Assembly: GCF_000143415.4 (NCBI RefSeq)
Contig: NW_003314366.1
Span: forward strand, 186,001-250,000
Length of the DNA: 64,000 bases
Direction: 5' to 3'
Origin: Selaginella moellendorffii
Lineage: Eukaryota; Plantae; Lycopodiophyta
How positions within the stretch are numbered: position 1 is the first letter of the stretch; each line of letters opens with the position of its first letter. The translations under genes and the position numbers were made by a program. The notes under the pieces were generated by a model, which saw only the letters and a list, made by a program, of their open reading frames with translations, was not told the origin of the DNA and ran no database searches. Shown here piece by piece: positions 41,978-64,000 of this stretch.

Positions 41978-44651
41978 TCATCCCCTTCTCTCAGAATGAT
42001 AGAAGACTATTAGGGTTCTCTTATAGATAAGCCAGGATCTAGAGGAATGTCAGGAGAAGGCATTAGTGGATTTGTAAGTAGTATTAGTTATTCCGGATCC
42101 CTTTATACAAAACATTTCAACTGTTGTGCATGCACAATTTTTGGAGGATCGGCCTGTTGGACGTTATACCAAACTTCATAAACTTATGATCCAACTTGCT
42201 ACAACACTTGATACGGTCCTTTCCATTGAGCAAAAAGCCCCTTAAATAAATCACATACCATAAGATAGGGAAAACAGACTAACACTAAGTCATCCACTTT
42301 ATACTCCACAAGTGGACGATGATGGGAGTTGTAGTATCGTTGTTGTCCCACTTGTATGCGGCCTAAGTGTTTAGCAGACTCTGCTCAGACAAGTGGAAAA
42401 ATGTTTTTCAAATACTAATCCTATGACTTAGCATCGGTAGCTCGTGGCAATCACGAAGGTAAACCCAACTTCATTGGTAATATTGGAGTATGACTATATA
42501 GAAGTTTATATGGTGAAGCATCAACAGAACTCTGCACCCTTGTGATATATACATACTGAAGAGATGGCAAATAATTATCCCAATCCGAATGGTAGGCATG
42601 GAGAAACTGTGGAATAAAGACAAAAGACACCACCAGCTATAAATGATCATCAGGATCTGTCCCCATAAAATAAAAAAGGGCGTCTTTAGGGCGATATTCA
42701 AAATGTAAATGCTGGAAAGACAAGTCATCAGCAAGTCATCCTCAGGATTCTCAAACTCATTTCAAAGCATTCAAATTTATGGCTCAATCTTTTGAGCCTT
42801 GCGAACTTCATCAAGAGAAGGTAGATCTTGCTCTACACCTTGTGGACACTAAACGTCAAGTACAGGAACTGCCAACAGCACAAAATTCTTATTTAGAACA
42901 TTCACAAATGTTGGAATAATAGGCTCGTCATAAACATAAAAAAAGAGTGAAGAAGGAAAAGGAGCTCGAAAAAGGGTATCAGCATCAGCCATAACACTCC
43001 CTGAGCAATGAATAACATTAAAATTATATGTCTGAAGCTTCAAAGCCCATCGAGCAATATGACCAACTAGGTTCTTTTGCTTCAATAATGAAGTAATGGC
43101 AATATGATCACCTTCTAGTAACGTCTGAGAACCATGTAAATATGCATGAAGTTTCTTGAAACCCTAAACTGCTATTAAACACTCATCTATCGTAAAGTAG
43201 TTCATCTTCACCAGTTGTAATATATATCTTATAAAAACAATAGGATGGCATTGACCAAGCACACTTGCATCAACACAACTCCAAGACCAATATCAGAAGC
43301 ATTCACGCACAAAATAAAAGGTCGAGTGTAGTTTGGATATGCCAACACTAGAGGAGTCGTCAATAGCTCTTTGAGATCTATGAACGCCCACTCACAATTT
43401 AGAGATCAGATGAAAAATGACATTGACGCCTTCAACAACGCTCATAGTAGTGCAGTGCAATTAGAAAGATGATCCACAAAACGACTAAGATACTGCACCT
43501 TGCTTAAGAAGCGTTGCACATCATTCACACAGTTCAGAGTAGGGAACTTTAGAACAGCCAAATCAACTTGCAAACCCTCACAAGAAATACAGTACCCAAG
43601 ATAAGTTGTGTTCTTGGACCCAAATACGCACTTCGACCACTTCAACTTTAAACCAATGTCCTGTAGTCGATCTAACACTTTACAAACATCATGGACGTGC
43701 TCTTCCTATGTCCCCTCCGAGTGGATCAAGACATCATCAATGAAGTCAGTAATCACCTCCACATATCGCAAAGAACCTTGTCCATCATCCGCTGGAAAAT
43801 TGCTGGAGCATTGTTCAAACAGAACGGCATCACTAAAAACTTGTATAAACCAAATGGTGTATAAAAAGCAATCTTAGGAATATCTTCTTCGGCCATCGAT
43901 ACTTGCTAGTACCTAAAAGCAAGATCCAACTTAGTGAACCAACGACTTCTCCCAAATGATCCAAGAGATCAGCAGTGTGAGGAAAAGGGTACATATTTAG
44001 GATCATCAAGGCATTTAATGGATGATAATCAATGCAGAAATGAATACTCTCATTAAGCTTTGTCACAAGATAATGTTCAAATACCCAAGGACTCCACGAC
44101 TTCCGAATAACACCTTTCTCTAACATCTCCTTGACATTTGCACGTAAAATCTTGATTTCTTTGGGTGACCAACAACAAATAAGAACTTTAATTAGGTGAG
44201 CATTCCCGGTTGGAGTAGGATGATGTGTGGCAATTTTGGCCTCAGATGATAGGTTAAATTCAAAGAGATCGGAATACTCTTTTATGAGCCAGTCAACCAC
44301 TGCAACACAAAGACTGTCAGAGGGATTGGAAAAGGGAAGAGCAGAACAATACGGAAACATAGGAGGAAGTAGTGGGGGGACAAAAGTAATAGAAGTAGAG
44401 GTAGAAGTAGAGGGATGAAGAAGTACAGAAAAGCTCTATTTCGTTAAAGTGGGAATTGTCATTATCCCACTTGTAAAATAAGGTTTCCAAACCTTTATAT
44501 AGTATATAAATATAACAAAATTCAACTGCATTGAGGCACATGCCATTTTATTTTAAACAAGGAAATGTCTACTCAATCACTTCTCCTCCCCCTGCCACTG
44601 CTTCACCTCTCTCTTCTCCTTGTCATCGTCGTCCAATTTCTTTCCATCCTT

Positions 44652-46310
44652 TTAATATTGGCTCAGTTGCTCCGAGTCTAGGTGGAGCCCAAGTCCCCAT
44701 TCAATCTTTAAGATCCAATCCTTCAATAGCGCACGAGCTCTCAGAGTCGTGCACAAGTCCTCGTATGTCACAATATGGCCGGGAGTCATTTTGGTCTTGT
44801 TGAAGACAACCTCACCACGTAGAAGAGCATTAGCCACTGTCAGAAGGTCGTCGTCGTCTAGAGACCGCGAGAAACGCAAGGCGTTGAGCTTCAAATCATT
44901 GGGCTTCCGGCCGTCCTCCACACCCATTGAGTTTGGCAACTCCCCGTCATGGTACCTCCTCAGCACATCTACCCATTTGTCAAAAACAACTTTTGTCGCG
45001 AGTAGAATGTTATGGATGCTGAGTGTGTCATTGACCCCCAGTGTTTTCGAGAGAAGACTCGAGAATTCCTGCAATGGAAATGGCGTGAGGCCACATGCTA
45101 TGCCACATACAACGAGGCTTACCTGCCAGGCGCTAGTTGCTAGTGCACGTCCTTGTCCTGGTTTTTGTGGCTTCTTCAGTTGAACCCAGAGCTTCCGTGT
45201 TCGTGCCAATGTCTCGTGCAGACCCGATTTGTAGCACGTTTCTTGCTTGACATTCTGCGCGTGGGAGATGTATATGATAGATCGGAGGGGCGAGTTGCCT
45301 TTTATCAGGCGGACAACTCTTGTCTTGAAGACTTTCTTCACCTCCTCGCCCACCATAATATCCACAGCTATCTCTTGCATCGCCAAGCTAGAATGCTGCC
45401 CGGAGACGGCATAGAACCGGATGTTCTGATCGTCCAACACCTTCCTATTGATCAAGTCTGGAAACCTCATCTCGCCCTTCATTTTTTGGTAGTAGGGGAT
45501 CACGTTTGCGATGTCGGGTGTTACTGGACTTGCCAGCATCTTCTGCTTCAATTTCTCCACCCACTCATCAGATACTAGCCTGTGGTTGTATTTGCTTTGG
45601 ATGTCGATACGGCTCACGTCGATTGTATATACTTTGTTGGAATAGTAACAAGTACTATTATCTGCGACAATTTTTGCTGCCTCTTCTTGCTCTTTCTGCT
45701 CTTTGCGGCTCTTCTTTTTGGTGGGTGTAGTGTTCGAACCCGAGGCAATGGCATCACTGAGTAGCTTCTTTTTTGGAGCAGGAGAGTCGGACGTCGGCTT
45801 GAGCTTGACCACCCTTTTCTGCTTCGAGGTAGTTTCCAGATCGACCCCCTTCCCCTTTGCTTCGCGAACTGGAGTCACTCTCAACGGCTCAATGTTGGAA
45901 TATAGTTTTTGAACATCGCCGTAGGTGAGGTCCGTGGATTCCATGTGATCTTCATAGACCCGCAGCGTCTTTGAAATTGTGGGCCTCCTGGACAACCTCT
46001 CCCTAGCTCCCTCTAGGAATTCCTCATAGCCGCTGCCCCCCTCCGGGAAGCCGCTAGGATGTGCAAGGTGGATCTTGAAGGCAGACGCTGTCTCTACCAG
46101 AAGTGCCAGTCCATATTCTTGCATGGAACTGCATGGAGTGTCTGTCACTTGGATGAGGATCCCCATGCATTCTTTTCTCCCACCATCTGTGTTGTACAGC
46201 TTCAGATCCTCGCCTTCCATCCCGAAAGTCCAACTGGTGAGCTCCTCCCCCTTCTCTACATCCACATTGACAGTGGCTGGAAGAAGAACGCAATTCCTCG
46301 CCTGTTCAGA
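44652..46310 (-). CDS. Element-borne protein with a ParB/Srx-like domain; probably 3'-truncated; in-frame 54-nt intron at 45069-45122
   Basis: YTIDVSRIDI...NHRLVSDEWVEKLKQKML...FYAVSGQHSSLA resembles the ParB-N 'R...V..L...I.....DGxHR' pattern, followed by a helical region. Confidence 0.6.
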   Translation of the reverse strand, partial: SEQARNCVLLPATVNVDVEKGEELTSWTFGMEGEDLKLYNTDGGRKECMGILIQVTDTPCSSMQEYGLALLVETASAFKIHLAHPSGFPEGGSGYEEFLEGARERLSRRPTISKTLRVYEDHMESTDLTYGDVQKLYSNIEPLRVTPVREAKGKGVDLETTSKQKRVVKLKPTSDSPAPKKKLLSDAIASGSNTTPTKKKSRKEQKEQEEAAKIVADNSTCYYSNKVYTIDVSRIDIQSKYNHRLVSDEWVEKLKQKMLASPVTPDIANVIPYYQKMKGEMRFPDLINRKVLDDQNIRFYAVSGQHSSLAMQEIAVDIMVGEEVKKVFKTRVVRLIKGNSPLRSIIYISHAQNVKQETCYKSGLHETLARTRKLWVQLKKPQKPGQGRALATSAWQVSLVVCGIACGLTPFPLQEFSSLLSKTLGVNDTLSIHNILLATKVVFDKWVDVLRRYHDGELPNSMGVEDGRKPNDLKLNALRFSRSLDDDDLLTVANALLRGEVVFNKTKMTPGHIVTYEDLCTTLRARALLKDWILKIEWGLGLHLDSEQLSQY

Positions 46311-46719
46311 AATGCACAACAATTAGAGCTGACAGATGAAAAGCTAGTAGCTGGAAATAACGTGAGGCCACACGCCATTCACCACTGCATCAGATGTCTT
46401 GAGGCTGCATCCTAAGATGGCATGAGGCTACACGCCATCTGTAACCGGACTGCACTCGAGAGCCCAATCGGTGCATGCCAATGTTGCTACTGAATGGCAT
46501 GTGGCCTCATGCCATTTTCTACTTGGCCTAAAAGACTTACCATTTGAAGCCGAATGGAGGCGTGACAACCGGACTCGCTGGCGAATGTGCACTGTGTGTG
46601 CAGCGGATTGTAGCAGCAAGGCTACTCTGCCACTTACAGTTGGAGAGTGGCGCTGAAATCTCCCGGGACGCCAAGTGGGCTGCGTGTGGGTGGCGGAGTG
46701 GGCGGCGGAGTTGGCGGCG

Positions 46720-46900
46720 AAGTTACAAACTGGGTGTGTCTTGAAGTGGACGCCGATGCACACGAGCGCGATGCGAGCGTGATGCGAGCGCGAGTGTGAT
46801 GCAAGCGCAAGTGGACGCCGATGCACACGAGAAACCTATAGAGAAGTGGGAGCGCGAGTGGGAGCGCGATGCGAGCGCGAGTGTGCGAGCGCGAGTACGA
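46720..46900. repeat. CpG-rich degenerate short repeats (gcgagcgcga...)
   Basis: Direct reading; aagtggacgccgatgcacacgag occurs twice. Confidence 0.75.
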
Positions 46901-47789
46901 AGCAAAATGCAAAACCTAACCTCACACGCGTGAAATGTCACGACGGTTGGTAATCCCGCCACGTCATCATTTCTCGGACTTGGGCGCCACTATTAATTTC
47001 TGGATTGGCGCGCGCATGCGTGAAATCCAAAAGAAATCCGCAACGTCATCATTCCTCGGACTGCATGCACGCGAAATCCAAAAGAAAGATCATGATTGGG
47101 ATATCATTTAATACCCTCACTATATTTATACCATGCATGATTGGATATTCCAAAGCATTTTGTATTTCCAAAAATGCCAAATGTTCAGCTAAATAAATTG
47201 TCAGAGGATGACGTTCAAGCATGTGGGCTCATGCAATTTTGATCCCAAAAAATGCACCAAAAAATGCTTGGCGTCATCTGGTGTTATCTCTTGAATGGCG
47301 TGGGGCCGCATGCCATTTTCAGGAGCACATAGGAGTATATTCCTAGAATATTCTGACACGCGCGAGATTGTTTTGAGTTTCCTGGAGATCCAACCGTTAG
47401 ATCGCAACTAAATTTTACAGAATGGTATACAATGTCCTTCTTGATGACCCTGCAAAGAAGCATCTCGATCGGACACCACATGAGACCACACGAGCCTTAC
47501 AATGTTTCAGGGGCATTTGCCATAGATCCGACCGTTATTTTGCTCCAAGATTCTACAGTTTGGTGTGCATTGACCTTTCCATCGACACTGCAAAGGGACA
47601 TCACAATCAGATGCGGGATCACAAGAAACCAACTTCACTAACTCTGGTTTCACCAAGATCTACGTAAGGAGTTATGAAATGAAAGGACCCTCTCTATTGA
47701 AATGTGTTTATGGTCCTAGGGGCATTGTGACATATCAAAGGATTTTGCATCAAGTTCTGTATTTGCATGTTTATCAAGCTACTGAATTG

Positions 47790-47821
47790 CTAAACCCTAA
47801 ACCCTAAACCCTAACCCTAAA
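47790..47821. repeat. Interstitial plant telomeric repeats (CCCTAAA) x ~4
   Basis: ctaaaccctaaaccctaaaccctaaccctaaa. Confidence 0.9.
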
Positions 47822-48619
47822 CATGTGGCAAATGCTGCGTGAAGAAAGATGCCCTTTCTGGGAAAATGCTGTAAGAGGCAGATTCCGAGCAGATGTATCT
47901 CAGGCCAGCGAAGGGGACAAACGAAAGCTAGCTATAAACATGACGGGATGCAAATAGATTACTAGGCTGGTCCTGCGAAAATCAAAAACCATAATTGAAA
48001 ATATTGAAAATGCAAAAAGAAAGGTTTATAATATTTTTGAATTTTAAGCAACCAAATGAATGTAAGTAGGGCATGTGTTTGTAAGTTTAAAAATGCCTCA
48101 ACCACTTAAATTCCCAAGTAAATAAAGCTGTTTCTATTTTTGGTACAGGTAAACTTTATAGCGTGTGGGCTCATGCAATTTTGAACCCAAAAATGCACCA
48201 AAAAATGCTCGACTAGCATTATTCTTTGAATGGCATGTGGCCTTATATTGCCATAAATGGACGTACACACACAGCATAATTATTCCTTTACACGGCGAAT
48301 AATCTTGGTGCGGATCGCTGACATGGCATGGCAAAGTTCGAATCACTGACATGGCACAGCTGGATCGAGGCAAGGACATGATGTGACAAAGTTTAACCTC
48401 CGACAGCAAAGTCTAGAAGCTACTCAGTTTGAAATTTGTCAGAGGAATCATAAGATCTGGTTTGTCAGAGGATTTGATGTGACGTTCAAGCATGTGTTAT
48501 TTTTGAATTCTCGAACTCATTCCTAGGTCTATCATTTTTGTGCGCCGTGTTCTTGGTTCCGCTGAGCGCAGTGAGCGCTGCTTGTGTAAGCGGCGTTGTG
48601 AGCTGTGGTTTATGCGTCT

Positions 48620-48752
48620 ACAAGCGGTTGCGGCATTGCGAGCGCCATTGCGAGCGGCAGTTTATGCGAGTGGCAGTTTGTGCGAGCGGCGCTACGAGCA
48701 GTTGCGGTGTTGCGAGCGGCGCTACGAGTAGTTGCGGTGTTGCGAGCGGCAC
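48620..48752. repeat. GC-rich minisatellite (30-bp unit gcgagcggcgctacgag.agttgcggtgtt)
   Basis: Two full tandem units plus partial units upstream of the transposase. Confidence 0.8.
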
Positions 48753-49116
48753 TGTCTTTGGTGTGGCTACCGCTTCCTCTTGATATTCGGCAATTGTGCT
48801 TCCTGGTATGTTCACCATGGAATGGTTTAGGACCACATTTAGAAATGGCATGAGGCCACATACCATCTTGGGCCCTTGCAATTTCATGGCTAGCGTATTG
48901 TCATGTATGTTTTTACTTGCCTGCAGCTGTGTGTATATCAAGATGGCATGAGGCCTCATGCCAATTTTGTGAATGCGAAATTTCACGTGGGTGTCAATAG
49001 CATGTTTGAATAATGGCATGTGGCCTCATGCTATTGAGGTTGTTTGGTATGTTATGATTTAGGCCATTCTCCAATCATTTTTTGTATGGTCTTAACTTCT
49101 TTTCTGCACTTTCAGA

Positions 49117-52100
49117 ATGGCCTTCAGGGTTGGGGAAAAGGTTTACATTTTGAATGGTGGGAAGAGAGTTGCAAAAGGGACCCTTGTGTCTATAGATCGG
49201 AACTTTGTTATACACTGTCAAAGGCTTGGGGAAGGCAATGCTGCTGTATCAGTAGAGACTGTCTTCGATGGGAATGTGGTCGCTATTGAACGAGGAGAGA
49301 TGGTCGTCGGGGTAAATGTTGTTGTTGCCTTGAAAAATCTGCAGAAGAAAGCAAATGTTGGGGACAGCGCAAGTGCGACGCATGTTCCCTCCATGGATCT
49401 TAAGAACCGTACTACATGGATTCAGGCAAAAGTGTTTCTAAACAACCCCGAGGGGGAGGTGGTAGCTGAGGGCTTAGCCACAGTTGTCGATCCAAGAGAT
49501 GCGGTTGCTAATCAAAAATTGGGCTGGGATGATATTGGAGTTGCGATTTTAGAGGTTGTTGACACAGAAGAAAACAGTCTGACTATTGGAAGCATTGTGC
49601 GGTGGAAATTGAGGCATTTAGTGTTTGAGAATGTGAAGGATTCACAATCAAACACCACTACAACTGATGACAGAACATCTCTTCATGGGAAAAGAAAGTA
49701 CACCTTCCTACAGCGCAGCCAAAGGGATCTGAGCAACGAACCGAAAAGGCAGAAAATGGCGATGGAGGTTCGAATGGTCTCGACAGTTGCTTGTTGCAAG
49801 AGGAGGTGCTGTCAACATGCTGATTGGGATGCTATTGAAGAGGAGAGAGCAAGATACAAGACATTGTCCTGGAAGGCAGCTCGCAATTTTGTGTATGAGG
49901 CATTACGGTCATCTGTTGATGCTTCAGAACATCAGGTGGGGGGCATGGTCTTCCAGAGGGGTTTGGTCTGCATGAAGGCATGGAGAATCATTTATGGAGT
50001 CCCTCGAACCACATTCTACAGAATCAAAACTGAGTTCGAGGAACAAAGGGTTCAACAGGCAGTCCATGGGAACGACGGTACGCACAAAACCAGGGGTCAT
50101 GTTGTATATGGAGAGGCAATCTTCAAGAGGTTTGTCGAGACATGTAGCAAGCAGCAACCACATAAAACCCGCCTCTTGGAAGATGGAACACGAGACACCC
50201 AACGAGTTCTCCCTTCCATGTATACCAAGGGGGCCATATTGGAAGATGTGAATCGGGAACTCCAGAGTAATGGCTACAGGAAGCTGAGCCAATCTAGATT
50301 TAGTAGATTGTGGAGCAACAGGTTCAGGGATGTGAGTATAGGAAAGTACTCCAGCTTTTCAAAGTGTGACGAGTGCACTGCTATCAAAATGGCTTTGTCG
50401 AAGAATTCTTGCAGCGCTCAAGAGCGAGAGACGTTGGTTAGAAGGCGGCTCGACCACAACATCGAGCAGAAAAGCTGCAGTACTGCATATTATCATAACA
50501 GGATTCTCTCCATGGAGAGACCTGACTCTTACCTCTGCATCATCCACGACAAAATGGACCAGAAAAAGACGTGCTTACCTCGACTCAATCCTGCCCCCAA
50601 GGCAATCTCTTCATCCATGCAGCTGCCTGTGTCTCTGTTTGGCATAATCGCTCATGGGCATGGTGCCCAGAACTATGGGAACTGCTTTGTACCTCTATGG
50701 GGTGGCGGGGGTGCAAACATGATGATTGCGTCCCTAGCAAAACACTTAAGGTCTCTGCAAAGTGCACAGACTGAGCTGAACGGCCAACCCTTGCATAAGG
50801 CCCTTGTCGATCGAACCCCATACAGGGTTCAGCTGGAGGAGGAGCAAAGGCTTGCAGTATCGCGTGGGGCCCCATGCCATCCCAGTGAATATGTTGGCCG
50901 TCAGATTGTAGGGTTATCACGTGAGGCCTCATGCCATTCTGACGAGGCTGGTCGCCCGGTGAATGCACAGCCTCATCCAAACGAAGCAGAATCTCAAGGA
51001 AGTTTTTGCGGCCGATGTGGCCTTCCACCCCATCTTCTGCTCCAAACAGACAATGCTGGCAGTGAGAACAAAAACATGTACGTCTTCGCGTACTTGGCGA
51101 TGCTTGTTGCCAAAGGCATATTTGAAACGGTTACACTTGGCTTTCTCATGGTTGGGCACACTCATGAAGACGTCGATGCCATGTTCAGTCACCTGGCAGA
51201 GTCCCTCCGGCGATCCAATGTCCTCACCCTCCCACAACTCTACGATGAATTCCAAAATTGCATCAAAGGCACTGTTGAAGCTGCACTTGTGACAGAGGTT
51301 CCAGACTTTAAGGGGTTTGTAAGAGGCTACATCAGGGACGGATCCGAAATGCTGATTGGCCACTCCAAGCCTCTTCAGTTTCATTTCAGCATGCGTGACG
51401 GTGCTCCAGTGATGAGGTACAAGATGAGAGAATGGGACACAGTGTGGCTGCCAGTGGACGGCATTGAACTCTTCAAGAGAGATCCCATTACTGGGGAACC
51501 TATGATTCCTCAGGGTTCCCCACGGCCGATGCACCCGGATGGACTCAAAAACCAGGAAAGTATAGTGGCCGGGATTAGACAGCATATTGCCTTCTGGAAG
51601 AGGGGGTTGGTGTTTGGTGGAGAATCCTATTTTAAGAGGTGCAAGCCTTTGCTTGAATACTGGGAGAAGATTATATCTGCTATCCAAAATGGGCCGGTTG
51701 TATATGAAGAATTGGAAGAGTCCTTTTGGCCAGAACCCAGAGCACCAGATAGTAGCGGAAAAATGTCCTCTGGAAATGCAGTGACAGATAACGATGTTGA
51801 GGATCACTATTGTGGGCCGAGGAACAAGAAGCCGGATTCAGCATTCAATCCAGTACAAGTCTGCAAAGGAATGGTCGTGCTTGTCAGACCCAGTAATAAA
51901 AAACAAATGATATGGGTGGGGCGCTGCATCACTGATGCAGAGGAGGACGCGGAAACTAACTCCTTCAATGTAACTGTGGAGTGGTTCAAGCCAAGTTCCG
52001 GATATACGAAGGATTGCCTAGAAAAGAGATGGGTGCTGAATCCAAGGGATCCCAGCATGAGCATATCGGTGGATAATGTTGTGCATGGTTGGATGCGGAA

Positions 52101-52255
52101 ACAGAGTGCCACCATCACCTTGCCAGACCATGCAAGAGATGCAGCAAGAGCATTCATAACCCGGGTTCAAGGTGAGATTTAATATTCCTTTACTAAGTTT
52201 CTAATGTATTTTATTTCAAGGTGAACAATCCGAATCTGAATCAGAGGAGGCGTGA
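49117..52255 (+). CDS. Intact Sola-type DDD transposase (~1030 aa) with extra N- and C-terminal domains; short last exon 52221-52255
   Basis: VCMKAWRIIYGV, KCDEC..H..H, IHDKMDQKK, LQTDNAGSENKN and FLMVGHTHEDVDAMFS; uninterrupted 1021-aa ORF; GT-AG intron 52172-52220 adds EQSESESEEA*. Confidence 0.8.
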
Positions 52256-52979
52256 TGGCATGTGGCCCTTTGCACTAGTATATCTTAATACTGGTCTGAG
52301 AAATAGAATGGCATGTGCCCTCAGGCCTTTTACTAAAATCACCTTTGAAAGAAATGCAAGCCTCTATGTCGTAAAAAAAAGGTACTAGAGAAATTCCTTA
52401 ATAATATGAATGTTATTTAGTTTCATGAAAATACACTAAGGGTCAAATGAGTTAAATGACTTCTCCAGACTAGCAATGCCTCTTGCTACACCTTCACAAT
52501 TAGATTCGTTAGAAAAAGATAACATTGAATAATATCTAAATGTTCTCACCATTAAGTTATATGTCTGGCTAATAGGAATGACGTTCATCTTGGAAAGCTC
52601 ACCACACGCTCAATGAACAAACAAATAGTGTGTGCGCGCATGCCATCGCTCTTCTTTAGCTTCAGATTCGGCTTGTTCACCTTGACAATGAGATTTATTA
52701 TACAACCAGATGGACTCAGTCTGGACACAAAGTCACCGCGCTAATCACCATGCCCCAGATATGTCTAGCCCCTGGACAAAAAACAAATGAGCAAGTATGA
52801 GATAAAGGGGAGAAATCTCAAAGTCACACTTGGCATGATTGTGTTGCAACCAATCCATACCAAGGATGAAGTCAAAAGCTTGACTTGGCACCACCCACAA
52901 TGACTGCAACCTAAGCTTGAGATCGCCTATACGCACAACTAGGTCTGCCTCATCCCATGCATATGCATGTGTACAGCTG

Positions 52980-53558: not shown

Positions 53559-54172
53559 AGCTGTTGCCATAAATAATGAAAACTGACTTTGCCACACAAC
53601 ACAAGTGTAGACGGCAATATGTAGCAACAAGTCAAGTAATAGAAGATAAACTCAAACTTGTATCAACGAAAATGAAGAGAATAATAGGAGACATCTTGTT
53701 ATAAAAACTAGATTGGAAAGTAAACACTGAATGAATTGGTGTTGAGTGGACCCCTTGATAATACTCCTGAAAGAAATATAGAGTGGTCATTGGCTTATTC
53801 GCACAAAGTCTCTCTATTACTCGTGTGATTCTTCATTTCCTAGATGCATCTTGGTGTCTAGAGCTTCCACTACAGTAACACTAATAAGATGTTGTTGAAG
53901 CCAAGGTCTCCATCCAGGAAATGGTAGCTGTTAATCTGGAAAATGCCAACAACACCGATAAATGTGACCAACTTCATCACACACCCAGTAATGAACATCA
54001 CGGCCACGACCACATCCTCACCCTTGTCCTTGGAATCAAGCAGTACCAATATCAACCTCTATTAGAACAGGACCATCACCCACAGGAAGTGGAGTTGAAG
54101 GACATGCCGTGAGAAGTGGAAGATGTGACAACTCATAATGTTGTGCCAAGCGAAGAGCATCGTCAAGAGTGG

Positions 54173-57100
54173 TGTAAGCCACAAATTTTTCCTTTCTAAT
54201 TTGCTAGTTCACCTCATTTATTCAACCACCATGGCCTTGGCCTTAGTTAAGTTACCTCACCAAGGTCGCCTATTGTACCAACTCCTACTTGGTCTGCTTG
54301 GTTTCAGCTACTCACTGCACAAATAACTTTGTGTTACCCATCCATCCACGGATTCCCAAATCTCTCCCAATCTACCTCCCCAGGTTAGATTAAACTTAAG
54401 GTTTAGATACACTCCCCATAGGCACAAGCATCTAAGCACACTAAGCCACTAGGTTCTTAACATCCCTTGGTACAACAAAACTTGATCATGGGACCCTCTA
54501 AATCATAAACTTTGGGTGCAACACTTACTTCAAGACACCAGGGGGAAACACCATAGCCTAATGGCTCAGTATGAGTACCCCTACTCCCACACTTCCATCC
54601 CGAAGGGAAGGCCCAAACCCTTGGGAAGGGCGAGGACTAATAATCCACAAGGTACTCAAGTGCACCAGTCCATATGAGCTAAGAGCACCACAGTCCATTT
54701 CCCTTCCAGGAGTGGAAGCTGCTTTTGAACACTTCCTTGGGTGGCACTTTCAACACCAGCTGAGTCCATGCTCACTCCAACCCATGGCCCCTTAGCCCCA
54801 GTCTCAAGCTCAAGTCAGTTTGGAAGCACCAATAGAAAGTTCTTTTAAGACTAGTTCTTAGACCTCACTTTTGGAACCCCCTACAGCCCCCCCCCCCCCC
54901 CCCCCTATGAGACACACACTTTGGGCTTTCACTCCATGACCTTCACTCCATGACCTGTATTAGTATTTGGACTTGGTCTCAGACTTGATCTCGAACTCGA
55001 TTTCGGACTTGACTTCAGACTCGGTCTCGAACTCGATCTCGGACTTGATCTCGAACTTGACCTCAGACTCTGTCTTGGACTCAATCTCGGACTCAGTCTT
55101 GGACCTGATTTTAGATCTCGGACTCAATCTTGAACTTGGTCTCGGACTCAGTCTCGCACTCGGTCTTGAAGTCAGTCTCGGACTTGATCTTGAAGTCGGT
55201 CTCGGACTCAATCTTGGACTCGGTCTCGGACTCAATCTCGGACTCGGTCTCGGACTCAATCTTGGACTCAGTCTCGAACTCAGTCTTTGAGTTGGTCTCG
55301 AACTCAGTTTCATCCGATGAACTCTTTGTCATTTTTGTCATGCTTTCAGGGATCATTTAGCCTTCAACACCTCGGGGAGTTGGTTCCTTACAACTCCACC
55401 ACCCATTGTGTAAGGAATGGGTGAGTTCCTTGAAGTTCAATGCCCACATCGAATGCCTCTTTTTAATCCTACGACTTGTTTACCATGTCTTCAAGGGCAT
55501 CCCCCCACTTAGCAATGTGCCTAAGTTAGCCTCTCTGGCCAAGAGCCCATGACAATAGATTATAGGTGTCCCTATACCCCTCCCCTCACCATGCCCTAGT
55601 ATGGGGTTGGGACTTGAACCAAGCCTTGCTTTACTAAGGGGTTGGGACTTGAACCTAACCTCCATAGAATACATTTATGGATTCAATATCCTTGTGGGGA
55701 GTCGGGTGTAATTCTCTATGCCTGGTCAACCTAACTAACCCATGCTAATTAGTTTACCTCTAGTGCACTTTCGGGTCTCAACATATGACATTGCTCAATT
55801 TCTCAAAATAGATTCTTTAATTGAATTTTGCATAAGTACATAGAGTTATACTTTGAAAAAATTCCTCCACTAAATCCCACGTGTTCGCTAAGTTCTCCTC
55901 CGGTTTCTATGTTGCTTTGCAATATGAAAATCCTTTCCACTTCACATGGAATTCCCTCACCTCATGTCCTTGTCACTTGCTCTTGCACATATTGAGGATG
56001 GCCTTAACGTCATATTCTTCTTCCCCTTAGATGATCTCAGGTAGAGGTCTTACTTGGTCCCTGCGAAGCGGATCCTCAAAGTACGGCTTGAGTAAGTTCA
56101 CATGGAACATAGGATGCATCTTTCCCATCTTTCGAGGAAGTTAGAAGTAAGCCACCTTACCAATTTGTGCCTCAATCTCGTAAGGCCCTCTAAACCTACT
56201 TAAGGAACTCAAGATTAATTCATTTCCAGTAATACATGCATTTTTACCTTTGGGTCAGCTTCCGGCTGATCCCACTTGGTAGCCTTAAGTTCTTGGTGTT
56301 CAACCACACCTTCTCCCCAGATTGAAACTCTACATCCTGGTGCTTCTTGTTCACATATTTGGTTTGCCTTTGTTAAGCCTATTCTAAAGAATCCTTCACT
56401 AGATTCCAAATGTTGAGTCTTTCCGCTGTGAATGCCTCCACCCTAGGTATCTCTCCATGATACTTGGCCACGCCGAGTTCAACAGGACCTTCAATAGCTC
56501 ACCCATTGACTCAGCCCAATACTCGAATGTGGTGAGTTGTTATAGTACATTTTCTCAAGTCCCAAATGACTTACCCAATCGGTTTGGTCTCCCGAAACAT
56601 AGCATTGTAAAGAATCCTCCAGCTGCCAATTCACCCTTTCCGTTTGTCCATCTGTCAAGAAGTGTTAGTGCCATCAAGCTTGACTTAATACCCAATACTT
56701 GTCTGTGGGTGATAGGCAGTGCTAAATTTTAACTTGGTGCAATACTATTCCAGGAGAGTTCTTCAGAACCTACTGGTAAAGATCTTATCTCGATCTGAGA
56801 TGATCTCTTCTAGCTTTCCCCACACTTGAATCACTTGTTCGAAAAATAGCTTTGCCACACCTTCCGCATCCACTTCCGTTGTAGTGGATATGAAATGTGT
56901 TGTCTTCAAAAATTGGTCCACCACCAAGAATATCACATCAAACCCCTCACTTAGGGGGAGTCTCATGATGAAGTTCATTGTAAGACACTTTCACGGACAA
57001 TCTGGAATTGGAATGCTTTGTAACAAGCCCCCACTAGCCTTATTTACGGCTTTGACCTACTGACATGTTGGACATATCTTTACATAGTCTTGGACATTCT

Positions 57101-58563
57101 TAGCCCAATGATACTTCCTCTTGAGTAACCCCTTTGTCTTGGGCACTGTAGTGCACCTTATCTCTCTCCCCTTAAGCCAACTGGAAAAGGGGGAATTGCT
57201 TTATGAGAGAGCCCTTAGTGACTATTTTATCCCCATTTATCCCCCAAAGTTCCAAGGATCCATGGTGATAGTATATCCAAATCTCATCCCATGATCATAT
57301 GCGCTACAGGCACTCCGCCATTTTCTTCTTGCACTTCCTGACTTCTTGAAGTTTCTCTTCCCGATCTTATATTGTCAGTTTTCCTCAGTTTTCCTTTCTA
57401 ATTTGCTAGCTTACCTTGTCTATCCAACCACCACAGCCTTGGCCTTAGTTAAGTTTCCTTGCCAAGGTTCCTGCATATTGTACCAACTCCTAGTTAGTCT
57501 ACTTTGTTTCAACTACTTACTACACGAGCATACTTATCCATCTATGAATTCCCAAATCTATCCCAATCCCCCTCTTTGGGTTAGACTAGACTTAAGGTTC
57601 AACTACACTCCTTGCAAGCACAAGCATCCAAGCACACCAAGCCACCAATTTTCTAACATCCCTTGATATAACAAGACTTGATCATAGGACCCTTTAAATC
57701 CCAAGCCTTGGGTTCAACACTTGCTTCGAGACACCGGGAGGAAACACCATGGCCTAATGGCCCAGTATGGGTACCCCTACTACCCCACTTCCATCCCGAA
57801 GGGAAGGCCCAAGCCCCTAAGAAGGGTGAGGACTAATGAGCCACAAAGTACTTAAGTGGGGCACCACTCCACATGAGCCAAGAGCACCGCAGTCAGTTCC
57901 CTTCCAGGAGTGAGAGCTACTCTTGAGCACTTCCTTGGGTGGCCCCTTCAACATTAGCCGAGTCCATGCTCACTCCCACCCAAGGCCTCTCACAACGAAG
58001 ATGCATGAGAAGCTGGTACCTTAGCCTTAGTCTCAACCGCAAGTCAGTTTGAAAGCACCATTGGAGAGTTCCTTCAAGACTAATTCCTAGAGTTCATTAT
58101 CCCTACTATACTTTTGGAACCCCCTACAACAATGCCCCCCCCCCCCCCCCCCATCCGCCCCCGGGAGACACACACTTTGGGCTTTCACCCCACGACCTGT
58201 ATTAATATTCAAACTCGGTCTTGGACTCGATCTTGGACTCAATCTCGGACTTGACTTCAAACTCGGTCTCAGACTTGATCTCGGAACTCGATCTCAGATC
58301 TGACCTCGGACTCTATCTCTATCTCAGTCTTAGACCCAATCTCGGATCTCAGACTTGATCTTGAACTCAATATCAGACTCGATCTCAAACTCAGTCTTGG
58401 AGTCGGTCTTAAACTCGATCTCGGACTCGGTTTTGGACTCGGTCTTAGAGTCAGTCTCAAACTCGATCTCGAACTCGGTCTCATCTGATAAACTCTTTGT
58501 CATTTCGGTCGTGCTTTGGGGAAGCCTTTAGCTTTCGACACCTCTAGGAGTTGGTTCCTTACA
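54173..58563 (-). mobile_element. Chromoviral gypsy deletion derivative with ~1.2-kb LTRs
   Basis: Long direct repeats 54173-55392 and about 57385-58563, both ending ggagttggttccttaca; flanks AGTGG/AATGG; internal decayed integrase (IISDRDKIFTSRF, HPMFHVNLLKPY) and chromodomain (EEEYDVKAIL..VKWKGF). Confidence 0.82.
54965..55310. repeat. Degenerate 12-bp tandem array (ctcggactcgrt) inside the LTR; second copy at 58210-58485
   Basis: Direct reading; produces SPRL/ESET pseudo-ORFs. Confidence 0.88.
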
Positions 58564-59279
58564 AATGGCTGGAGTGCATGCACAAGTCTAACAAGATCTT
58601 GACGAAGTGCTGGCCACAACATTCCTAACTTGATCCGCTCTGATATATTTGGCTTTGCACAAAGCAAAAGACTTCGCAAACGAATGCCAAATTGCATCAC
58701 CAAATCAAATAGCCCTTGACAAAGATGATGCAATTGTTAGAAGGTATCATCACAATTGTCAACATGTTCGAATGTGTGTTTGAAGACATCCAGGAGAACA
58801 CTCCAATCCCCACGAATGGCTACGCTCAAACCATTGTACCACTGCAATGCCATCCCTTGGAAATACGTGGGAAACTCATGCAAATGTCGAACATCATCCC
58901 AAGAATGATATGTGCCAATCACTATGAAGTGATCGAACCAATGATACACATCATTCCAGGATTCTCACAAAAGAACTCCGGCCCAACGCGAGGATTGGAA
59001 TCAAGAGCAAAAGGAGCTGTACCATATACCGTGAATGCCACCATCAATTGAGTTTGGTTGTTCAATTGCAATTGCACCAACTACTGCTCTATAGTCAAAT
59101 GAGGAAGAAACTGCTGATTTGCTATGAAGATGAATGAAAAGGAAAGAGCAAAAGAAGAGAAATGGGAAAAAAGCTAGAAGGAAAGGGAGATCTAGACAAT
59201 GCAAAAGCTATATCTAAACCAAAATCCTAAATCCAAGCACTCCCCAAAGACAATCAAAAGTCCCTCTCAACTCCACCAA

Positions 59280-59440
59280 TGTGAGTGCATGGAATATAGA
59301 AAGGGAATACAGAAAATGTGTTTATCAATTCAAAAACCTTAAATTATATACAGGAGTGAGTGGTCCAGATTGAAATCAATTCGATAGGTACCAAAATCCC
59401 ACTACGCTAATATTAGTATACGGTACACTTGGACCTCATA
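59280..59440 (-). repeat. 5' LTR of the outer gypsy element
   Basis: Similar to 41802-41977; adjacent tRNA-Ala-type PBS. Confidence 0.85.
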
Positions 59441-60167
59441 TATTAATTTTTCATTATTAATATAAAATATTTTAAATGTAAGTTATAAACAAAAATTAGC
59501 CATCTCACTACTTGAACTTGTCAAATCACTTTGTGATGGGGATTATGAAGATTTTCAACCAAACTATAGAAATCCACTAACATTTATAGATTTTGTATAA
59601 GAAGGATCATTCTAAAGCTCTATTTCGTTAAAGTGGGAATTGTCATTATCCCACTTGTAAAATAAGGTTTCCAAACCTTTATATAGTATATAAATATAAC
59701 AAAATTCAACTGCATTGAGGCACATGCCATTTTATTTTAAACAAGGAAATGTCTACTCAATCACTTCTCCTCCCCCTGCCACTGCTTCACCTCTCTCTTC
59801 TCCTTGTCATCGTCGTCCAATTTCTTTCCATCCTTTTAATATTGGCTTAGTTGCTCCGAGTCTAGGTGGAGCCCAAGTCCCCATTCAATCTTTACTTTCC
59901 CCTTATTAATAAAACAACTTCGTAGACTTCCAATAACATGCTGTAACACTTCTAGTATAATGCAAATCCTCTCAAAGAATTGTCTTTTAATATTAATACA
60001 ATGGCATGGAACCCCATGCCATAATAAGTTACATTTTTAAATAAATACATGCCATCTCAGATTGTTATTTTTTGCCTCCAACGCCTATACAATAATCTTG
60101 GAATTTCATCACTCTCCACACTATCAAGATTTAAACCCAATAGTAATGCCATCTCTTCTCTAATACA

Positions 60168-60919
60168 TCAACGCTCATTTTCAGTGGTCAAAGAACCCAT
60201 CCGGTTGAGCAGATTATGGAGATGCGGATAGTGCTTGGCTAGACAATATACATGCCATAAATGATGACTGGTGTCTGTCCGATCAAATGGCTTCTGATAT
60301 ACCGTTCCATCTGCCATTTGGTTGATTTCTGCAGCCACCTCCTGGACTGGCCGGTTCTCTATCACCATCGCTCTAAGCCGTTTTGCAAGGTCCCCCAGAA
60401 CATACAGTTTCTTCTCCCTAGTTTCCATACTACAAGAGATGGGGTGCACTGCATATGTGTGCGTGTTCGCTGCAGTTTTAATCGGCGAGTCATCGATGAT
60501 GAGGATTTCACTTGACCTAGCAGTCCGGTTCATCACTACAGCCTCTAGCTTGATGAAGATGGGCTTGCTACCCCTCACATGGACCATAGTCAAGCAATCC
60601 TCCTGCGTTAGGAGAAAGTCAAATGGTAATATTACTCGCGTCTGATTGTGCATCATCTGTAGCAACGATAATGCATTGTGGCGCATCATGGATGTCCAAA
60701 CTCCCAATTGCAAATTGAACCCGGCCCTCTATTTTAAGTGTCGCATGGTCATTATTAGATCCCGCAGTTTCTCTTGTGTGATTAATGTGAATCTGTCTCT
60801 TTTGACCAACTTGCGACCGCAGGCTTTGGAGGGTGCAATGACATTCGAGGACGAGCCACGCTCATGGGAGAAAAGGACACCGTTCAGATCAAAAATGATA
60901 TAGTACCTTCGCCATGACT
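60168..60919 (-). pseudogene. NIF/FCP1-like HAD phosphatase domain with an in-frame stop at 60729-60731
   Basis: IIFDLNGVL, LGVWTSM...N, LLTQEDC, KPIFIKL and ILIIDDSPIK..AN..AVHP. Confidence 0.75.
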
Positions 60920-60952
60920 CTGAAATGAAATGCGTCAGCATAAAAAATGGTA

Positions 60953-62840
60953 CAAGTCAATTTTACCATCTACAATATTAGCGAATGGTGCTTCCGATGG
61001 TCGTTGAGAGGGTTTTGGTCGAGGAAACGTGAAGGGCGGAAATACTCTCCTCTGCAATATGGGGTCAATCGCATCCGATGGCGTGTGGGCACATGCCATT
61101 TCAGCTGTAGACTCTGGTACAACTGGCTCAACAGTGGCATGGGGTGGTTCCGATGGCGTGTGATCACACGCCATTTCAGCTGGTGCCTCCGTTGGCAAAG
61201 TGGACATGACCGAACAGGCAGCAGGGGCGGTGTAGGGAGGTTCCAACGGCGCATAGTCAGACGATTGGGCACACGTTGAGTCCGTTGGAAATGAGGATAC
61301 GACCGGCTCGGCGGCTGGGGCGGCCTCATGCGGGTCCAATGGCGCCTGGTCACCGTCAGTTGGATACGTGGACAAGATTGACTCAGTGGTATGGGCAGCA
61401 TCAAGTGGAGCGTGGTCAGCTTGCTTGGCGTTGATATGGATAGTAGCCTCCACCAGCTCTGATGACTCTTGCAGGCAAGTAGAGTCCACTGGCGGATCCA
61501 TATGCATGTCCAAATATCTCCCTTCAATTGAGATGGTATCCTCCCGTGCTACTAAAAACAAACTCATTAGCACATTGAATCGACTATACTGATTTACCAT
61601 CAACTGCTATTGAGGAACTAGGACCGATATCACTTGGGCGCACTGCTGATTTTGAAGGATTGGACATACGTTTCGACCCTTGCTTGGCACTATCCTTCCT
61701 CGACACTAAAGGCTAGAGTTTGTAAATTCAACTGAATAATCTCTACTTACCATTTGCTCTGCGACCTACATGGACAATGTTAGAAATGGTAAAAGGTTAA
61801 GAATGGATGTACTATTATTTACCTGATGGTTTGTCTTGTATGACCTTCCTCCGCTGCTCTTTGGCCACCTCAGGCTGGCCATCGTCGTCATCATCGTCGT
61901 CGTCGTTATTGTGATCGTCACCATTGTGAGGACCATCCAAGTCCTCTTCGTCCTCCTCTTCTTCGTCCTCCTCTTCTTTGTCCTCCTCTTCGTCCTTCTG
62001 CTCTTCCTGCTCATTATCTTTCTCTGGCTCCTCATCCCCCTCCTGCATTTCTTCCATAGGCTGCTCAGGCTGGATGGCTTGTTCTTCCAGGACCATCTTG
62101 GGAAAATCATCTGGCCGAGTCTCCATCTCAAAATACAAGACATCCATAGCCTGTTTTAGTGCGTGACCTAGGACCGTATCCTCACCCGACTGTCTTAACA
62201 TGGTTTCTGCACGTTCTTGCACCCTTCGAAGACGATGAGATGAGAAAAACGTGGCCCTGACTTGAAAAGCATCCCTCATCCATTGTACCTCTCCATTGAG
62301 ATTGGGGAAGGGGAGTCTGCCATAGGAATCTGAGTCAAGAGGTGGTGACTGCCTGCTTTCACTCAGCCCTTGATCTGCAATGAATGGCATGAGCACACAC
62401 GCCATAACCGCGAGGCATTACCTATCATCTTTTCGTTGCCCTTATTCCTTTTTGAATCAAACGCCTCTGATCTCGATGACTGTCCAACGTGCTTTCGCTT
62501 TTTATGACCACTGTCAGTTTGAGCTTGGCTGGTGCTTGCCTGTTTTGCCTTTGAAGAAGTGTCTCCTGCAAGGAATGGCATGAGACCACACATCATTGCA
62601 AATATAATTTGTACCTCCTTTTTTCCTATTGCTTGTCTGTTTGTCCTTCTTCGATGTGCCACCAGTGCGCTTTTCAGTCCTTGTGTCTGAATATTCACAA
62701 CGATCTATAATCAAAATGGCGTGAGGCCTCACGTGACCTTACCTTGTGCAGGTTGTGAGCTCGGCCCAACATGGGTATCTTCAACAGTAGCTGTTAACGT
62801 TGTTTCAGCATCTGGGGGTGGCCACGCTCCTGCATACAGA
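60953..62840 (-). CDS. Low-complexity exons (acidic D/E tract, basic linker, Pro/Ala/Thr repeats), probably part of the same spliced element gene
   Basis: ORFs 61815-62405 and 60935-61603 plus small GT-AG-bounded segments. Confidence 0.5.
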
Positions 62841-62862
62841 GCTTGTGAGATAACATTTAAAC

Positions 62863-63885
62863 TTAAAGTGTGTACTCACCAGGTTCGCAGAGAAGATACT
62901 GTTTTTCTTTGGCAACTGTAATTATATGCTCCATTGAAGTCACCTCTTCAATGGAGTTTGTCACCGCAACACACGGGACACCCTTGAGTAGTGCGGCTCG
63001 AAAGAATAGTCTGCCGCTGTTGTACTCGACAACGCATTTGCCCTTGGAGTCGAAAGCAGGTGACCCACCCGCTATTGCGTTGAAGACCCAGCTGAGCATT
63101 TCCCATGCTGCACCTGGAGCTTTCTTTGGATTCGAAAGCTCCATAGCCGTCTTTAGTTCCTCAGGCACGGGTAAATTGACCTCCCTCAGATCAATTGGAT
63201 TGGCCTTGTCGTACGAAGTTGGGAAGTCACTCCAATCCCACTCTGCTGCAAGACCAATAACAAGGGCAAGTGTGAAGATGCGGACATTCGTTGGTATCTT
63301 CTTCTTAGCCATTATCCCATGGATCTCCCGCATCTCCTTGCCTTTCAACCGAGCCTTCACCTCGGACGTCGGCTTGAGCTTGACCACCCTTTTCTGCTTC
63401 GGGGTAGTTTCCAGATCGACCCCCTTCCCCTTCGCTTCGCGAACTGGAGGCACTCTCAACGGCTCAATGTTGGAATATAGTTTTTGAACATCGCCGTAGG
63501 TGAGGTCCGTGGATTCCATGTGATCTTCATAGACCCGCAGCGTCTTTGAAATTGTGGGCCTCCTGGACAACCTCTCCCTAGCTCCCTCTAGGAATTCCTC
63601 ATAGCCGCTGCCCCCCTCCGGGAAGCCGCTAGGATGTGCAAGGTGGATCTTGAAGGCGGACGCTGTCTCTACCACAAGTGCCAGTCCATATTCTTGCATG
63701 GAACTGCATGGAGTGTCTGTCACTTGGATGAGGATCCCCATGCATTCTTTTCTCCCACCATCTGTGTTGTACAGCCTCAGATCCTCGCCTTCCATCCCGA
63801 AAGTCCAACTGGTGAGCTCCTCCCCCTTCTTTGCATCCACATTGATAGTGGCTGGAAGAAGAACGCAATTCCTCGCCTGTTCAGA
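62863..63885 (-). CDS. Element gene copy 2: shared N-terminus joined in frame to a DNA-methylase-like C-terminal segment
   Basis: First ~179 aa near-identical to the 44652-46322 ORF; then KKAPGAAWEMLSWVF...GKCVVEYNSGRLFFRAALLKGVPCVAV; splice donor near 62878. Confidence 0.55.
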   Translation of the reverse strand, partial: SEQARNCVLLPATINVDAKKGEELTSWTFGMEGEDLRLYNTDGGRKECMGILIQVTDTPCSSMQEYGLALVVETASAFKIHLAHPSGFPEGGSGYEEFLEGARERLSRRPTISKTLRVYEDHMESTDLTYGDVQKLYSNIEPLRVPPVREAKGKGVDLETTPKQKRVVKLKPTSEVKARLKGKEMREIHGIMAKKKIPTNVRIFTLALVIGLAAEWDWSDFPTSYDKANPIDLREVNLPVPEELKTAMELSNPKKAPGAAWEMLSWVFNAIAGGSPAFDSKGKCVVEYNSGRLFFRAALLKGVPCVAVTNSIEEVTSMEHIITVAKEKQYLLCEPGEYTL

Positions 63886-64000
63886 AATGCACAACAATTA
63901 GAGCTAACAAATGAAAAGCTAGCAGCTGGAAATAATGTGAGGCCACACGCCATTCACCACTGCATCAGATGCCTTGAGGCTACATCCTAAGATGGCGTGA

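What the first reader, a model, noticed from the sequence alone, without database searches (positions are those of the whole stretch)
44530..64000. About 20 dispersed copies of a 22-bp palindrome ATGGCRTG-n6-CAYGCCAT confined to the element: parS-like sites?
Seen: near-complete copies start at about 45080, 46357, 46417, 46494, 47295, 48230, 48845, 48943, 49013, 50859, 50916, 52255, 52308, 60001, 61078, 61153, 62384, 62575, 62716, 63932 and 63992, with half-sites at about 44532 and 59716. The spacer is usually (A/T/G)GGCC(A/T/C). They occur in introns, UTRs, near both ends and inside coding sequence. I did not notice any in the host genes or retroelements. Known: ParB proteins load at dispersed palindromic parS sites. 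Inference: these are binding sites for the element's own ParB-like protein or its transposase, perhaps for end synapsis, self-recognition or anti-silencing.
Basis: partly seen in the sequence, partly recalled or inferred. Interest (0 to 1): 0.88.

Follow-up and report, generated by a model that had tools for sequence, protein, structure and literature searches.

The report
Plant transposon studded with family-specific palindromes
A multi-copy cut-and-paste transposon, probably of a seedless land plant, carries 23 scattered copies of one 22-letter mirror-image DNA word and a second gene with the fold of bacterial ParB, and related transposons carry different words of their own, so the word likely marks the element for one of its own proteins, an idea already raised for seaweed transposons and still untested.

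Summary
ATGGCRTG-n6-CAYGCCAT occurs 18 times at up to 2 mismatches (chance mean 0.04). A profile finds 25 sites, all inside two internally deleted copies of one DNA transposon, and none in 51 kb of host and retroelement DNA. The element has a DUF7869 (Sola-like) transposase and an opposite-strand gene with a ParB-fold domain, a weakly supported methyltransferase-like part and a NIF-like domain. The 23 distinct sites have unrelated flanks and avoid coding DNA (4 of 23). Their arms do not co-vary, which fits protein binding to double-stranded DNA better than a hairpin. Among 80 related transposase loci, many carry a different palindrome of their own, and two close families differ by one symmetric change in nearly every copy. 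Best reading: binding sites for an element-encoded dimer, more likely the ParB-fold protein than the transposase, for self-recognition or anti-silencing. A canonical parS/CTP clamp is doubtful: the GxxR arginine is missing in 18 of 18 family members. ParB genes beside inverted repeats were already reported in algal transposons in 2025, so this is a new variant, not a new kind.

The parts
44430..52785 (.). Element copy 1: left boundary, ParB-fold part of the accessory gene, divergent promoter region, transposase. It lacks segment B and is cut at 52785.
59614..64000 (.). Element copy 2: same left 281 bp, then segment B (59895-63361), then the shared 5' part of the accessory gene. It lacks the ParB-fold part and runs off the window.
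   Evidence: 280/281 and 623/639 identity to copy 1; contig 25 of run X3 holds both alternative parts, 480 bp apart
44430..44710 (.). Left terminal 281 bp, shared by both copies from the same base; has a small hairpin at about 44447-44472 and a degenerate site at 44525
49117..52255 (+). DUF7869 (PF25273) transposase, about 1020 aa, with a short predicted last exon at 52221-52255
   Evidence: E 5.1e-42; 21 other relatives at 28-42% identity
45123..46304 (-). Accessory gene exon: N-terminal region and ParB/Srx-fold domain (about 45230-45660); Box II reads SGQHS
   Evidence: exon limits predicted from sequence
44711..45068 (-). Accessory gene exon: conserved helical domain after the ParB fold, candidate DNA-binding domain
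   Evidence: no fold match
62880..63361 (-). Methyltransferase-like C-terminal part, degenerate (VEYNSG where motif I, recalled as FxGxG, would be)
   Evidence: Weak match to P0027/P0051 (pairwise E 0.017 and 0.002); P0027 itself matches N6_N4_Mtase models
61824..62841 (-). Four further predicted exons (low-complexity and acidic), split by 38-49 nt GT-AG introns, three of which hold one palindrome each
   Evidence: frame open over 455 aa; keeping any one of the four introns gives a stop
60171..60910 (-). NIF/FCP1-like phosphatase-fold region with one internal stop in this copy
   Evidence: PF03031, E 0.0014, below its cut-off; one search shows another letter at 60179 in other copies
45080..45101 (.). 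Palindrome in a 54-nt predicted intron (45069-45122) of the ParB-fold gene
46357..46515 (.). Three palindromes (46357, 46417, 46494) in the predicted first intron region of the accessory gene
47216..48251 (.). Four sites (47216, 47295, 48158, weak 48230) between the two divergent genes
48845..49034 (.). Three palindromes (48845, 48943, 49013) just upstream of the transposase coding exon, in a predicted 5' intron
50859..50937 (.). Two palindromes (50859, 50916) in frame inside the least conserved loop of the transposase
   Evidence: loop 14% identity to relatives against 47% and 56% on either side; loop length 57-118 aa
52255..52646 (.). Three sites (52255, 52308, 52625) downstream of the transposase stop
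60001..60022 (.). Perfect palindrome downstream of the NIF-like region
61078..61174 (.). Two perfect palindromes (61078, 61153) in frame in a Pro/Ala-rich linker, in a 75-bp duplication
62384..62737 (.). Three palindromes (62384, 62575, 62716), one in each of three consecutive short introns
63932..64000 (.). Copy-2 versions of the 46357 and 46417 sites (63932; 63992 cut by the window end)

Best explanation
The 22-bp palindrome is spread over the whole length of a multi-copy Sola-like DNA transposon and is likely the binding site of a dimeric protein that the element encodes, most likely its ParB-fold accessory protein, which would coat the element and so likely keep its two genes from being silenced. 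Shown: the sites, their confinement and spread, the ParB fold, and family-specific motifs in relatives. The methyltransferase-like part looks dead and would act, if at all, as a scaffold or reader. Binding probably does not follow the textbook CTP clamp cycle.
For: Confinement: 25 profile hits in the element, 0 in 51 kb outside. Dispersal: 19 of 19 copies tested have unrelated flanks, median identity 0.29; none lies in a tandem array; the largest gap is 1846 bp over a 12.3-kb reconstruction. Placement: 4 of 23 sites lie in predicted coding DNA, which is 62% of the element (p 1.8e-5), and the two in the transposase sit in its most variable loop. Constraint: half-sites read CA 26, CG 14, TG 2 at the CpG position (p 3e-6), although plain CpG decay should hit both strands alike. 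The arms vary independently (Fisher p 1.0, n 21), as expected for two half-sites read in double-stranded DNA. Relatives: 11 of 80 transposase loci hold 3 or more copies of their own palindrome under a strict test, and 19 of 80 under a looser one, of which 12 of 18 tested have 3 or more independent flank groups. Motifs follow transposase subclades. L051 and L033 (about 80% amino-acid identity) differ by one symmetric change: G/C in 10 of 11 copies against A/T in 12 of 12. ParB fold: Foldseek top hits Noc and ParB (E 2.9e-4); VIA-align Z 10.2, rmsd 2.9, 99 residues to PadC and Z 9.3 to KorB. Published parallels: inverted-repeat arrays beside the ParB-like PAG3 gene in another transposon superfamily and a ParB-methyltransferase gene in Ectocarpus Sola1-1.
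Against: No binding data exist. No ParB-like gene was detected in any of the 80 related loci, including those with palindromes; most contigs are short or decayed, but some palindrome-bearing ones reach 10-21 kb. Motifs track the transposase tree, which fits a transposase reader equally well. The helical domain gave no match to a ParB HTH (best Z 4.6, no Foldseek hit). Box II lacks the GxxR arginine in 18 of 18 sequences. The element is less CpG-rich than the host genes (observed/expected 0.68 against 0.90; retroelements 0.42), so any protection from methylation is partial. Exons are predicted, with no RNA splice support. Sites were picked by likeness to the consensus, which slightly favours the CA-over-TG result.
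Confidence: 0.5

Rival explanations
1. The transposase itself reads the palindromes, as hAT or Spm proteins read subterminal motifs, for end pairing or for activating its own copies; the ParB-fold gene is a passenger.
For: Motifs follow transposase subclades, and palindrome-bearing loci showed no ParB gene. A 2026 preprint reports sequence-specific activation by a Mutator transposase (abstract and passages). The N-terminus has a weak TNP1/En/Spm-like match (E 0.018).
Against: Sites are spread evenly through the interior and introns instead of gathering at the end that can be seen. A similar ParB-plus-inverted-repeat pairing is reported in Plavaka elements, whose transposase is of another superfamily.
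Confidence: 0.25
2. A true parS-type system: the ParB-fold protein loads at the palindromes as a nucleotide-gated sliding clamp and spreads, to bridge the distant ends of a large element or to clear repressive chromatin.
For: ParB fold with invariant G106, H108, R133, R174 and N155 in 17 of 18; multiple dispersed palindromes; element longer than 12 kb. VirB is a precedent for a ParB clamp that counters silencing.
Against: The Box II arginine whose loss abolishes nucleotide binding in tested ParB-fold proteins is S, T or L in 18 of 18. No HTH match was found, and no C-terminal dimerisation domain was identified.
Confidence: 0.1
3. The palindromes act as hairpins in the pre-mRNA or in single-stranded DNA, for instance to control splicing of the short introns.
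For: Four short introns hold one copy each. Among 18 copies in predicted transcription units, the variable pair is G-U on the sense strand 5 times and A-C twice, a slight lean only.
Against: No coupling of the arms; positions 9 and 14 are complementary in only 7 of 22 copies; many copies fold weakly (weaker than -4 kcal/mol); four copies lie between the genes; no Rfam match at gathering score.
Confidence: 0.07
4. The sites are targets of an element-encoded N4C/N6A methyltransferase that marks the element's own DNA.
For: Proposed for Ectocarpus Sola1-1; the Selaginella homologue P0027 has an N6_N4_Mtase-like C-terminal fold.
Against: Motif I is degenerate in the window; P0027 and P0031 show no DPPY/SPPY-type catalytic motif (motif recalled); no Pfam or NCBIfam methyltransferase hit. 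The 480 bp that may hold the catalytic motif are missing from both window copies.
Confidence: 0.04
5. Neutral relics: footprints of local duplication, or of a tiny mobile repeat, with no present function.
For: A few copies come from local duplications (47216/48158, 61078/61153), and in some relatives the motif sits in tandem units (6 of 18 tested have 1-2 flank groups).
Against: Unrelated flanks, strict confinement to the element, position-specific conservation, and repeated independent motifs in other families.
Confidence: 0.04

Closest known systems
Sola1-1_Ec32 of Ectocarpus (PMC12477816; passages and supplement rows read)
   Same: Large Sola-type DNA transposon with an opposite-strand accessory gene fusing a ParB-like domain to an N4C/N6A methyltransferase domain; self-binding and self-modification proposed.
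   Different: No palindromic sites described for it ('palindrom' 0 times in the main text; the one supplement hit concerns an EnSpm family). Here the host is probably a land plant, the methyltransferase part looks dead, and a NIF-like region is added.
PAG3 of red-algal Plavaka transposons (bioRxiv 10.1101/2025.02.11.637652; passages read; supplements closed)
   Same: ParB-like accessory protein with inverted repeats nearby, proposed to bind its own element.
   Different: Another transposase superfamily; ParB fused to a 2OG-oxygenase; repeats in tandem arrays beside the gene, whereas here they are dispersed with unrelated flanks over the whole element.
VANC/VANDAL and TnpA/Spm anti-silencing systems (PMC5735166; bioRxiv 10.64898/2026.08.24.746577; passages read)
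   Same: Family-specific short motifs gathered in introns and other non-coding parts of the element, turning over between related families.
   Different: Their reported motifs are 7-10 bp (YAGTATTAY, CCVTCGCAAA), for VANC arrayed in one orientation and spread by tandem repeats; no ParB link appears in the passages read. Those systems are proven by ChIP and EMSA; this one is not.
Bacterial ParB/parS, Noc, KorB, VirB (PMC12704722, PMC10676424; passages read; structures)
   Same: Same N-terminal fold; multiple palindromic sites; VirB uses the fold against silencing.
   Different: Box II is GQHS, not GxxR; no ParA gene seen in the element; HTH not demonstrated; eukaryotic chromatin context.

Membership tests
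ParB/parS CTP clamp | ParB/Srx N-terminal fold | tested here: met
   Model pLDDT 81; Foldseek Noc E 2.9e-4, ParB E 2.3e-3; Z 10.2, rmsd 2.9, 99 aligned to PadC
ParB/parS CTP clamp | Box II GxxR arginine for nucleotide binding | tested here: not met
   G-Q-H-S; the position is S 16, T 1, L 1 in 18 sequences; definition
ParB/parS CTP clamp | Central HTH domain that reads the palindrome | tested here: inconclusive
   Conserved helical domain, pLDDT 84, best Z 4.6 and no Foldseek match; it was folded without the preceding helix
ParB/parS CTP clamp | Partner ParA ATPase gene | tested here: inconclusive
   None among the element ORFs listed and scanned; the right part of the element is outside the window
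ParB/parS CTP clamp | Sequence-specific, nucleotide-dependent loading and sliding | not testable with these tools
   Needs biochemistry
Sola DNA transposons | Sola-type DDD/E transposase | tested here: inconclusive
   DUF7869 E 5.1e-42 with DKMDQ, QTDN..ENKN and GHTHEDVD motifs; that these mark Sola transposases is recalled, and no reference Sola sequence was compared
Sola DNA transposons | Terminal inverted repeats and 4-bp target site duplication | not testable with these tools
   Right end absent from the window; Sola1-1_Ec32 has a 282-bp TIR and 4-bp TSD
Algal ParB-accessory transposons (Sola1-1_Ec32, PAG3) | ParB-like gene on the strand opposite the transposase | tested here: met
Algal ParB-accessory transposons (Sola1-1_Ec32, PAG3) | Fused DNA-modifying domain | tested here: inconclusive
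   Only a weak 41-residue match to a homologue whose C-terminus has the N6_N4_Mtase fold; the linking 480 bp are unseen
Algal ParB-accessory transposons (Sola1-1_Ec32, PAG3) | Inverted repeats within the element | tested here: met
   dispersed here, tandem in Plavaka
VANC/TnpA-type anti-silencing | Family-specific motif enriched in non-coding parts of the element | tested here: met
VANC/TnpA-type anti-silencing | Protein-induced loss of methylation at cognate copies | not testable with these tools
   No methylome or expression experiment available

The most novel reading that the evidence does not exclude
Eukaryotic DNA transposons have captured a phage-type ParB-methyltransferase gene and turned it into a self-recognition system with its own parS-like code: every family writes a private palindrome into its introns and spacers, protein and site change together, and the protein loads there as a clamp gated by a changed nucleotide pocket to shield the element from silencing or to pair its far-apart ends. 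That would be a ParB site-and-clamp system at work on eukaryotic chromatin, with a natural panel of orthogonal protein-site pairs.
Probability: 0.2. Interest if true: 0.9.

Novelty: new variant of a known kind. Interest (0 to 1): 0.6.

Why it matters
How transposons recognise and protect their own DNA is proven only for a few flowering-plant systems (VANC, TnpA). For ParB-fold accessory genes it has been proposed twice in algae but, in the papers I could search, not tested. This locus supplies a sharp, high-information site (about 25 bits), a candidate reader, and sister families whose sites differ by a single symmetric change, so cognate and non-cognate binding tests can be designed at once. 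A positive result would extend ParB-type DNA recognition to eukaryotic chromatin and offer orthogonal targeting modules.

Tried and rejected
Genome-wide scan: no genome held. Hairpin under compensatory selection within the element: not seen. Tandem-repeat origin of the window's sites: rejected. Structured RNA family: 0 Rfam matches at gathering score in 44000-64000. ParB gene in the 80 related loci: HMM and tblastn searches gave no credible hit (the L038 hit at E 0.005 overlaps its transposase); a candidate ORF in L059 did not match (probability 0.2). Word-based homologue searches for the ParB part and the methyltransferase-like part found none; PDB sequence searches gave only low-complexity or chance hits. 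DNA context for ParB homologues: a genome-contig scan with a narrower alignment found 0 of 22 candidates; a viral-contig scan with the transposase found 0 of 178. The exact motif occurs once in viral contigs, not followed up and taken as chance. HTH fold match: none. Right end, TIR and TSD: not in the window. Expression: no RNA holder listed; run X20 is only guessed to be RNA and showed no splice joints in the rows displayed. A dimer prediction was not obtained. Literature: 10 searches; only the two algal papers combine ParB with eukaryotic transposons. PMC4738411, PMC5751038, PMC12730594 and PMC5753468 (passages) added nothing on such palindromes. Iyer 2011, the original Sola paper, Repbase entries and bioRxiv supplements were not seen and may bear on novelty.
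Full report
Observation. The pattern ATGGCRTG-n6-CAYGCCAT has 18 matches in the window at up to 2 mismatches, 7 of them perfect, against a shuffle mean of 0.04. A symmetric profile from 22 sites has 25 bits and finds 25 hits at 12 bits or more, all inside 44430-52785 or 59614-64000; the 44.4 kb to the left and the 6.8-kb retroelement stretch between have none, apart from one 10-bit half-site at 34879. No genome is held, so confinement could be tested only within the window.

The element. The window is eukaryotic: it holds a PPR-DYW-type gene (family recalled) and LTR-like repeats. Named homologues of the accessory protein come from Selaginella moellendorffii, Riccia sorocarpa and Calypogeia fissa, so I infer a seedless land plant. 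The two motif-bearing stretches share their first 281 bp (280/281) and a 639-bp block (623/639) but differ in between. One contig of run X3 carries both alternative parts in order, 480 bp apart, so both window copies are internal deletions of one longer element. Other copies continue at least 579 bp beyond 52785, where copy 1 is cut, so the element exceeds about 12.9 kb and its right end, TIR and TSD cannot be seen here. Over 100,000 short contigs of differing identity from each of two runs of one sample lie on this 20-kb stretch, over element and retroelements alike, which points to a multi-copy family but gives no copy number. The + strand gene encodes a DUF7869 transposase; that its motifs are of Sola type is recalled, not tested. 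The - strand gene has a ParB/Srx fold (the Atlas places it near fungal DUF3723), then a conserved helical domain with no fold match, then, beyond the unseen 480 bp, a part with weak likeness to the methyltransferase-fold tail of the Selaginella homologue P0027, low-complexity exons, and a NIF-like region (below cut-off).

Where the sites lie. Counting each site once gives 23. They cover the 12.3-kb reconstruction with no gap over 1846 bp, and only 4 lie in predicted coding DNA, which makes up 62% of it (p 1.8e-5). The two in the transposase sit in its most variable loop; the other two are in a Pro/Ala-rich linker. Four short predicted introns hold one site each; keeping any one of the four introns tested in copy 2 (three of them with a site) breaks a frame that is otherwise open for 455 aa. 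These exons are predictions without RNA support. All 19 copies tested have unrelated flanks, and none is in a tandem array.

What constrains the sequence. The two arms vary independently at the R/Y position (A-T 8, G-T 7, G-C 3, A-C 3; p 1.0), and positions 9 and 14 pair in only 7 of 22 copies, so there is no sign of a selected hairpin. At the CpG of each half-site, CA is common and TG rare (26 against 2, with 14 CG). That asymmetry suggests sequence-specific recognition that accepts T, or possibly methyl-C, on one strand only. The choice of sites by likeness to the consensus adds a small bias.

Relatives. A metagenome scan gave 80 loci with related transposases, the best 80 of 240. Eleven of 80 hold 3 or more copies of a palindrome of their own under a strict test, with 10 resampled controls each reaching at most 2. 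A looser test flags 19 of 80 and also 1 of 5 window controls, a tandem array; 12 of the 18 flagged loci tested have at least 3 independent flank groups and 6 are tandem-like. The window's transposase falls in a 29-row clade (support 97/98; 77 rows, 134 columns, so many forks are open). Of 32 loci in or assigned to that clade, 17 have 2 or more copies of their subclade's motif and 15, all of 1.3-4.3 kb, have 0 or 1; none has the window's motif, and 48 other loci (203 kb) hold 1 match to any of the six motifs. The motifs were defined from some of these same loci, and three pairs of loci are near-identical, so these counts overstate independence. L051 and L033 have about 80% identical transposases and unalignable upstream DNA, yet carry TTACGGAC-n4-GTCCGTAA and the version with A and T at the mirror positions in 10 of 11 and 12 of 12 copies. 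A private, co-changing palindrome is thus a recurring feature of this transposon group. Against the ParB reading, no ParB gene was found in any of these loci.

Mechanism. The anatomy fits an element-encoded dimer that binds two half-sites in double-stranded DNA at many points along its own element. I favour the ParB-fold protein because the fold's bacterial relatives bind palindromes and because ParB genes go with inverted repeats in an unrelated transposon superfamily. The transposase remains a serious rival. A textbook CTP clamp is doubtful: the Box II arginine required for nucleotide binding is absent in 18 of 18 sequences, although G106, H108, R133 and R174 are invariant and N155 nearly so, which hints at a changed but retained pocket. 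Anti-silencing or self-regulation is inferred by analogy with VANC, TnpA and VirB.

Known and new. A Sola element with an opposite-strand ParB-methyltransferase gene is described in Ectocarpus (PMC12477816; passages and supplement rows), and inverted-repeat arrays beside a ParB-like gene in red-algal Plavaka elements (10.1101/2025.02.11.637652; passages); both papers propose self-binding, and the passages I read report no test. In 10 literature searches I found no land-plant case, no account of element-wide dispersed sites, and no family-by-family turnover of such palindromes; Iyer 2011, the original Sola paper, Repbase and preprint supplements were not seen. Earlier notes of this scan report the same pairing in animal, fungal, moss-like and protist transposons; they are unchecked leads and show that the pattern recurs in this scan. 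Verdict: real, a new variant of a known but untested kind; interest 0.6.

Noticed in passing
window 52980-53560: Two direct repeats of about 180-195 bp, each with a partial 5S rRNA match (34.4 and 30.2 bits, below the gathering score), around a short spacer with a primer-binding-site-like TGGTATCAGA on the - strand: looks like a Cassandra-type TRIM (family recalled).
   Followed up: partly
window 52639-52700: Inverted copy (79% over 62 bp) of the transposase gene's last acceptor, last exon and adjoining palindrome; part of the element in other copies. It may be the 3' end of a convergent gene or a relic of a related element.
   Followed up: partly
window 47790-47822: About five plant telomere-type CTAAACC units inside the region between the two divergent genes; similar short units precede some palindromes in L030 and L074.
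   Followed up: no
window 60171-60910: NIF/FCP1-like region begins DLNGV where DxDx(T/V) is recalled for active enzymes; this copy has a stop near 60729.
   Followed up: partly
window 44447-44472 and 59631-59656: Small hairpin (8-bp arms) about 17 bases inside the left boundary of the element.
   Followed up: no
L059:2587-10873: Related transposase locus with six copies of its own palindrome upstream of a run of accessory ORFs, one of which looks by eye like a cytosine methyltransferase (7085-8089; no Pfam or NCBIfam hit).
   Followed up: partly
window 54187-58564: Two roughly 1.1-kb repeats, 75% alike and 3.2 kb apart, with 12-bp tandem arrays, flanking integrase-like remnants: a decayed LTR retroelement.
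   Followed up: no
window 38358-41366: Intact 1002-aa PPR protein with a C-terminal DYW domain (by eye).
   Followed up: no
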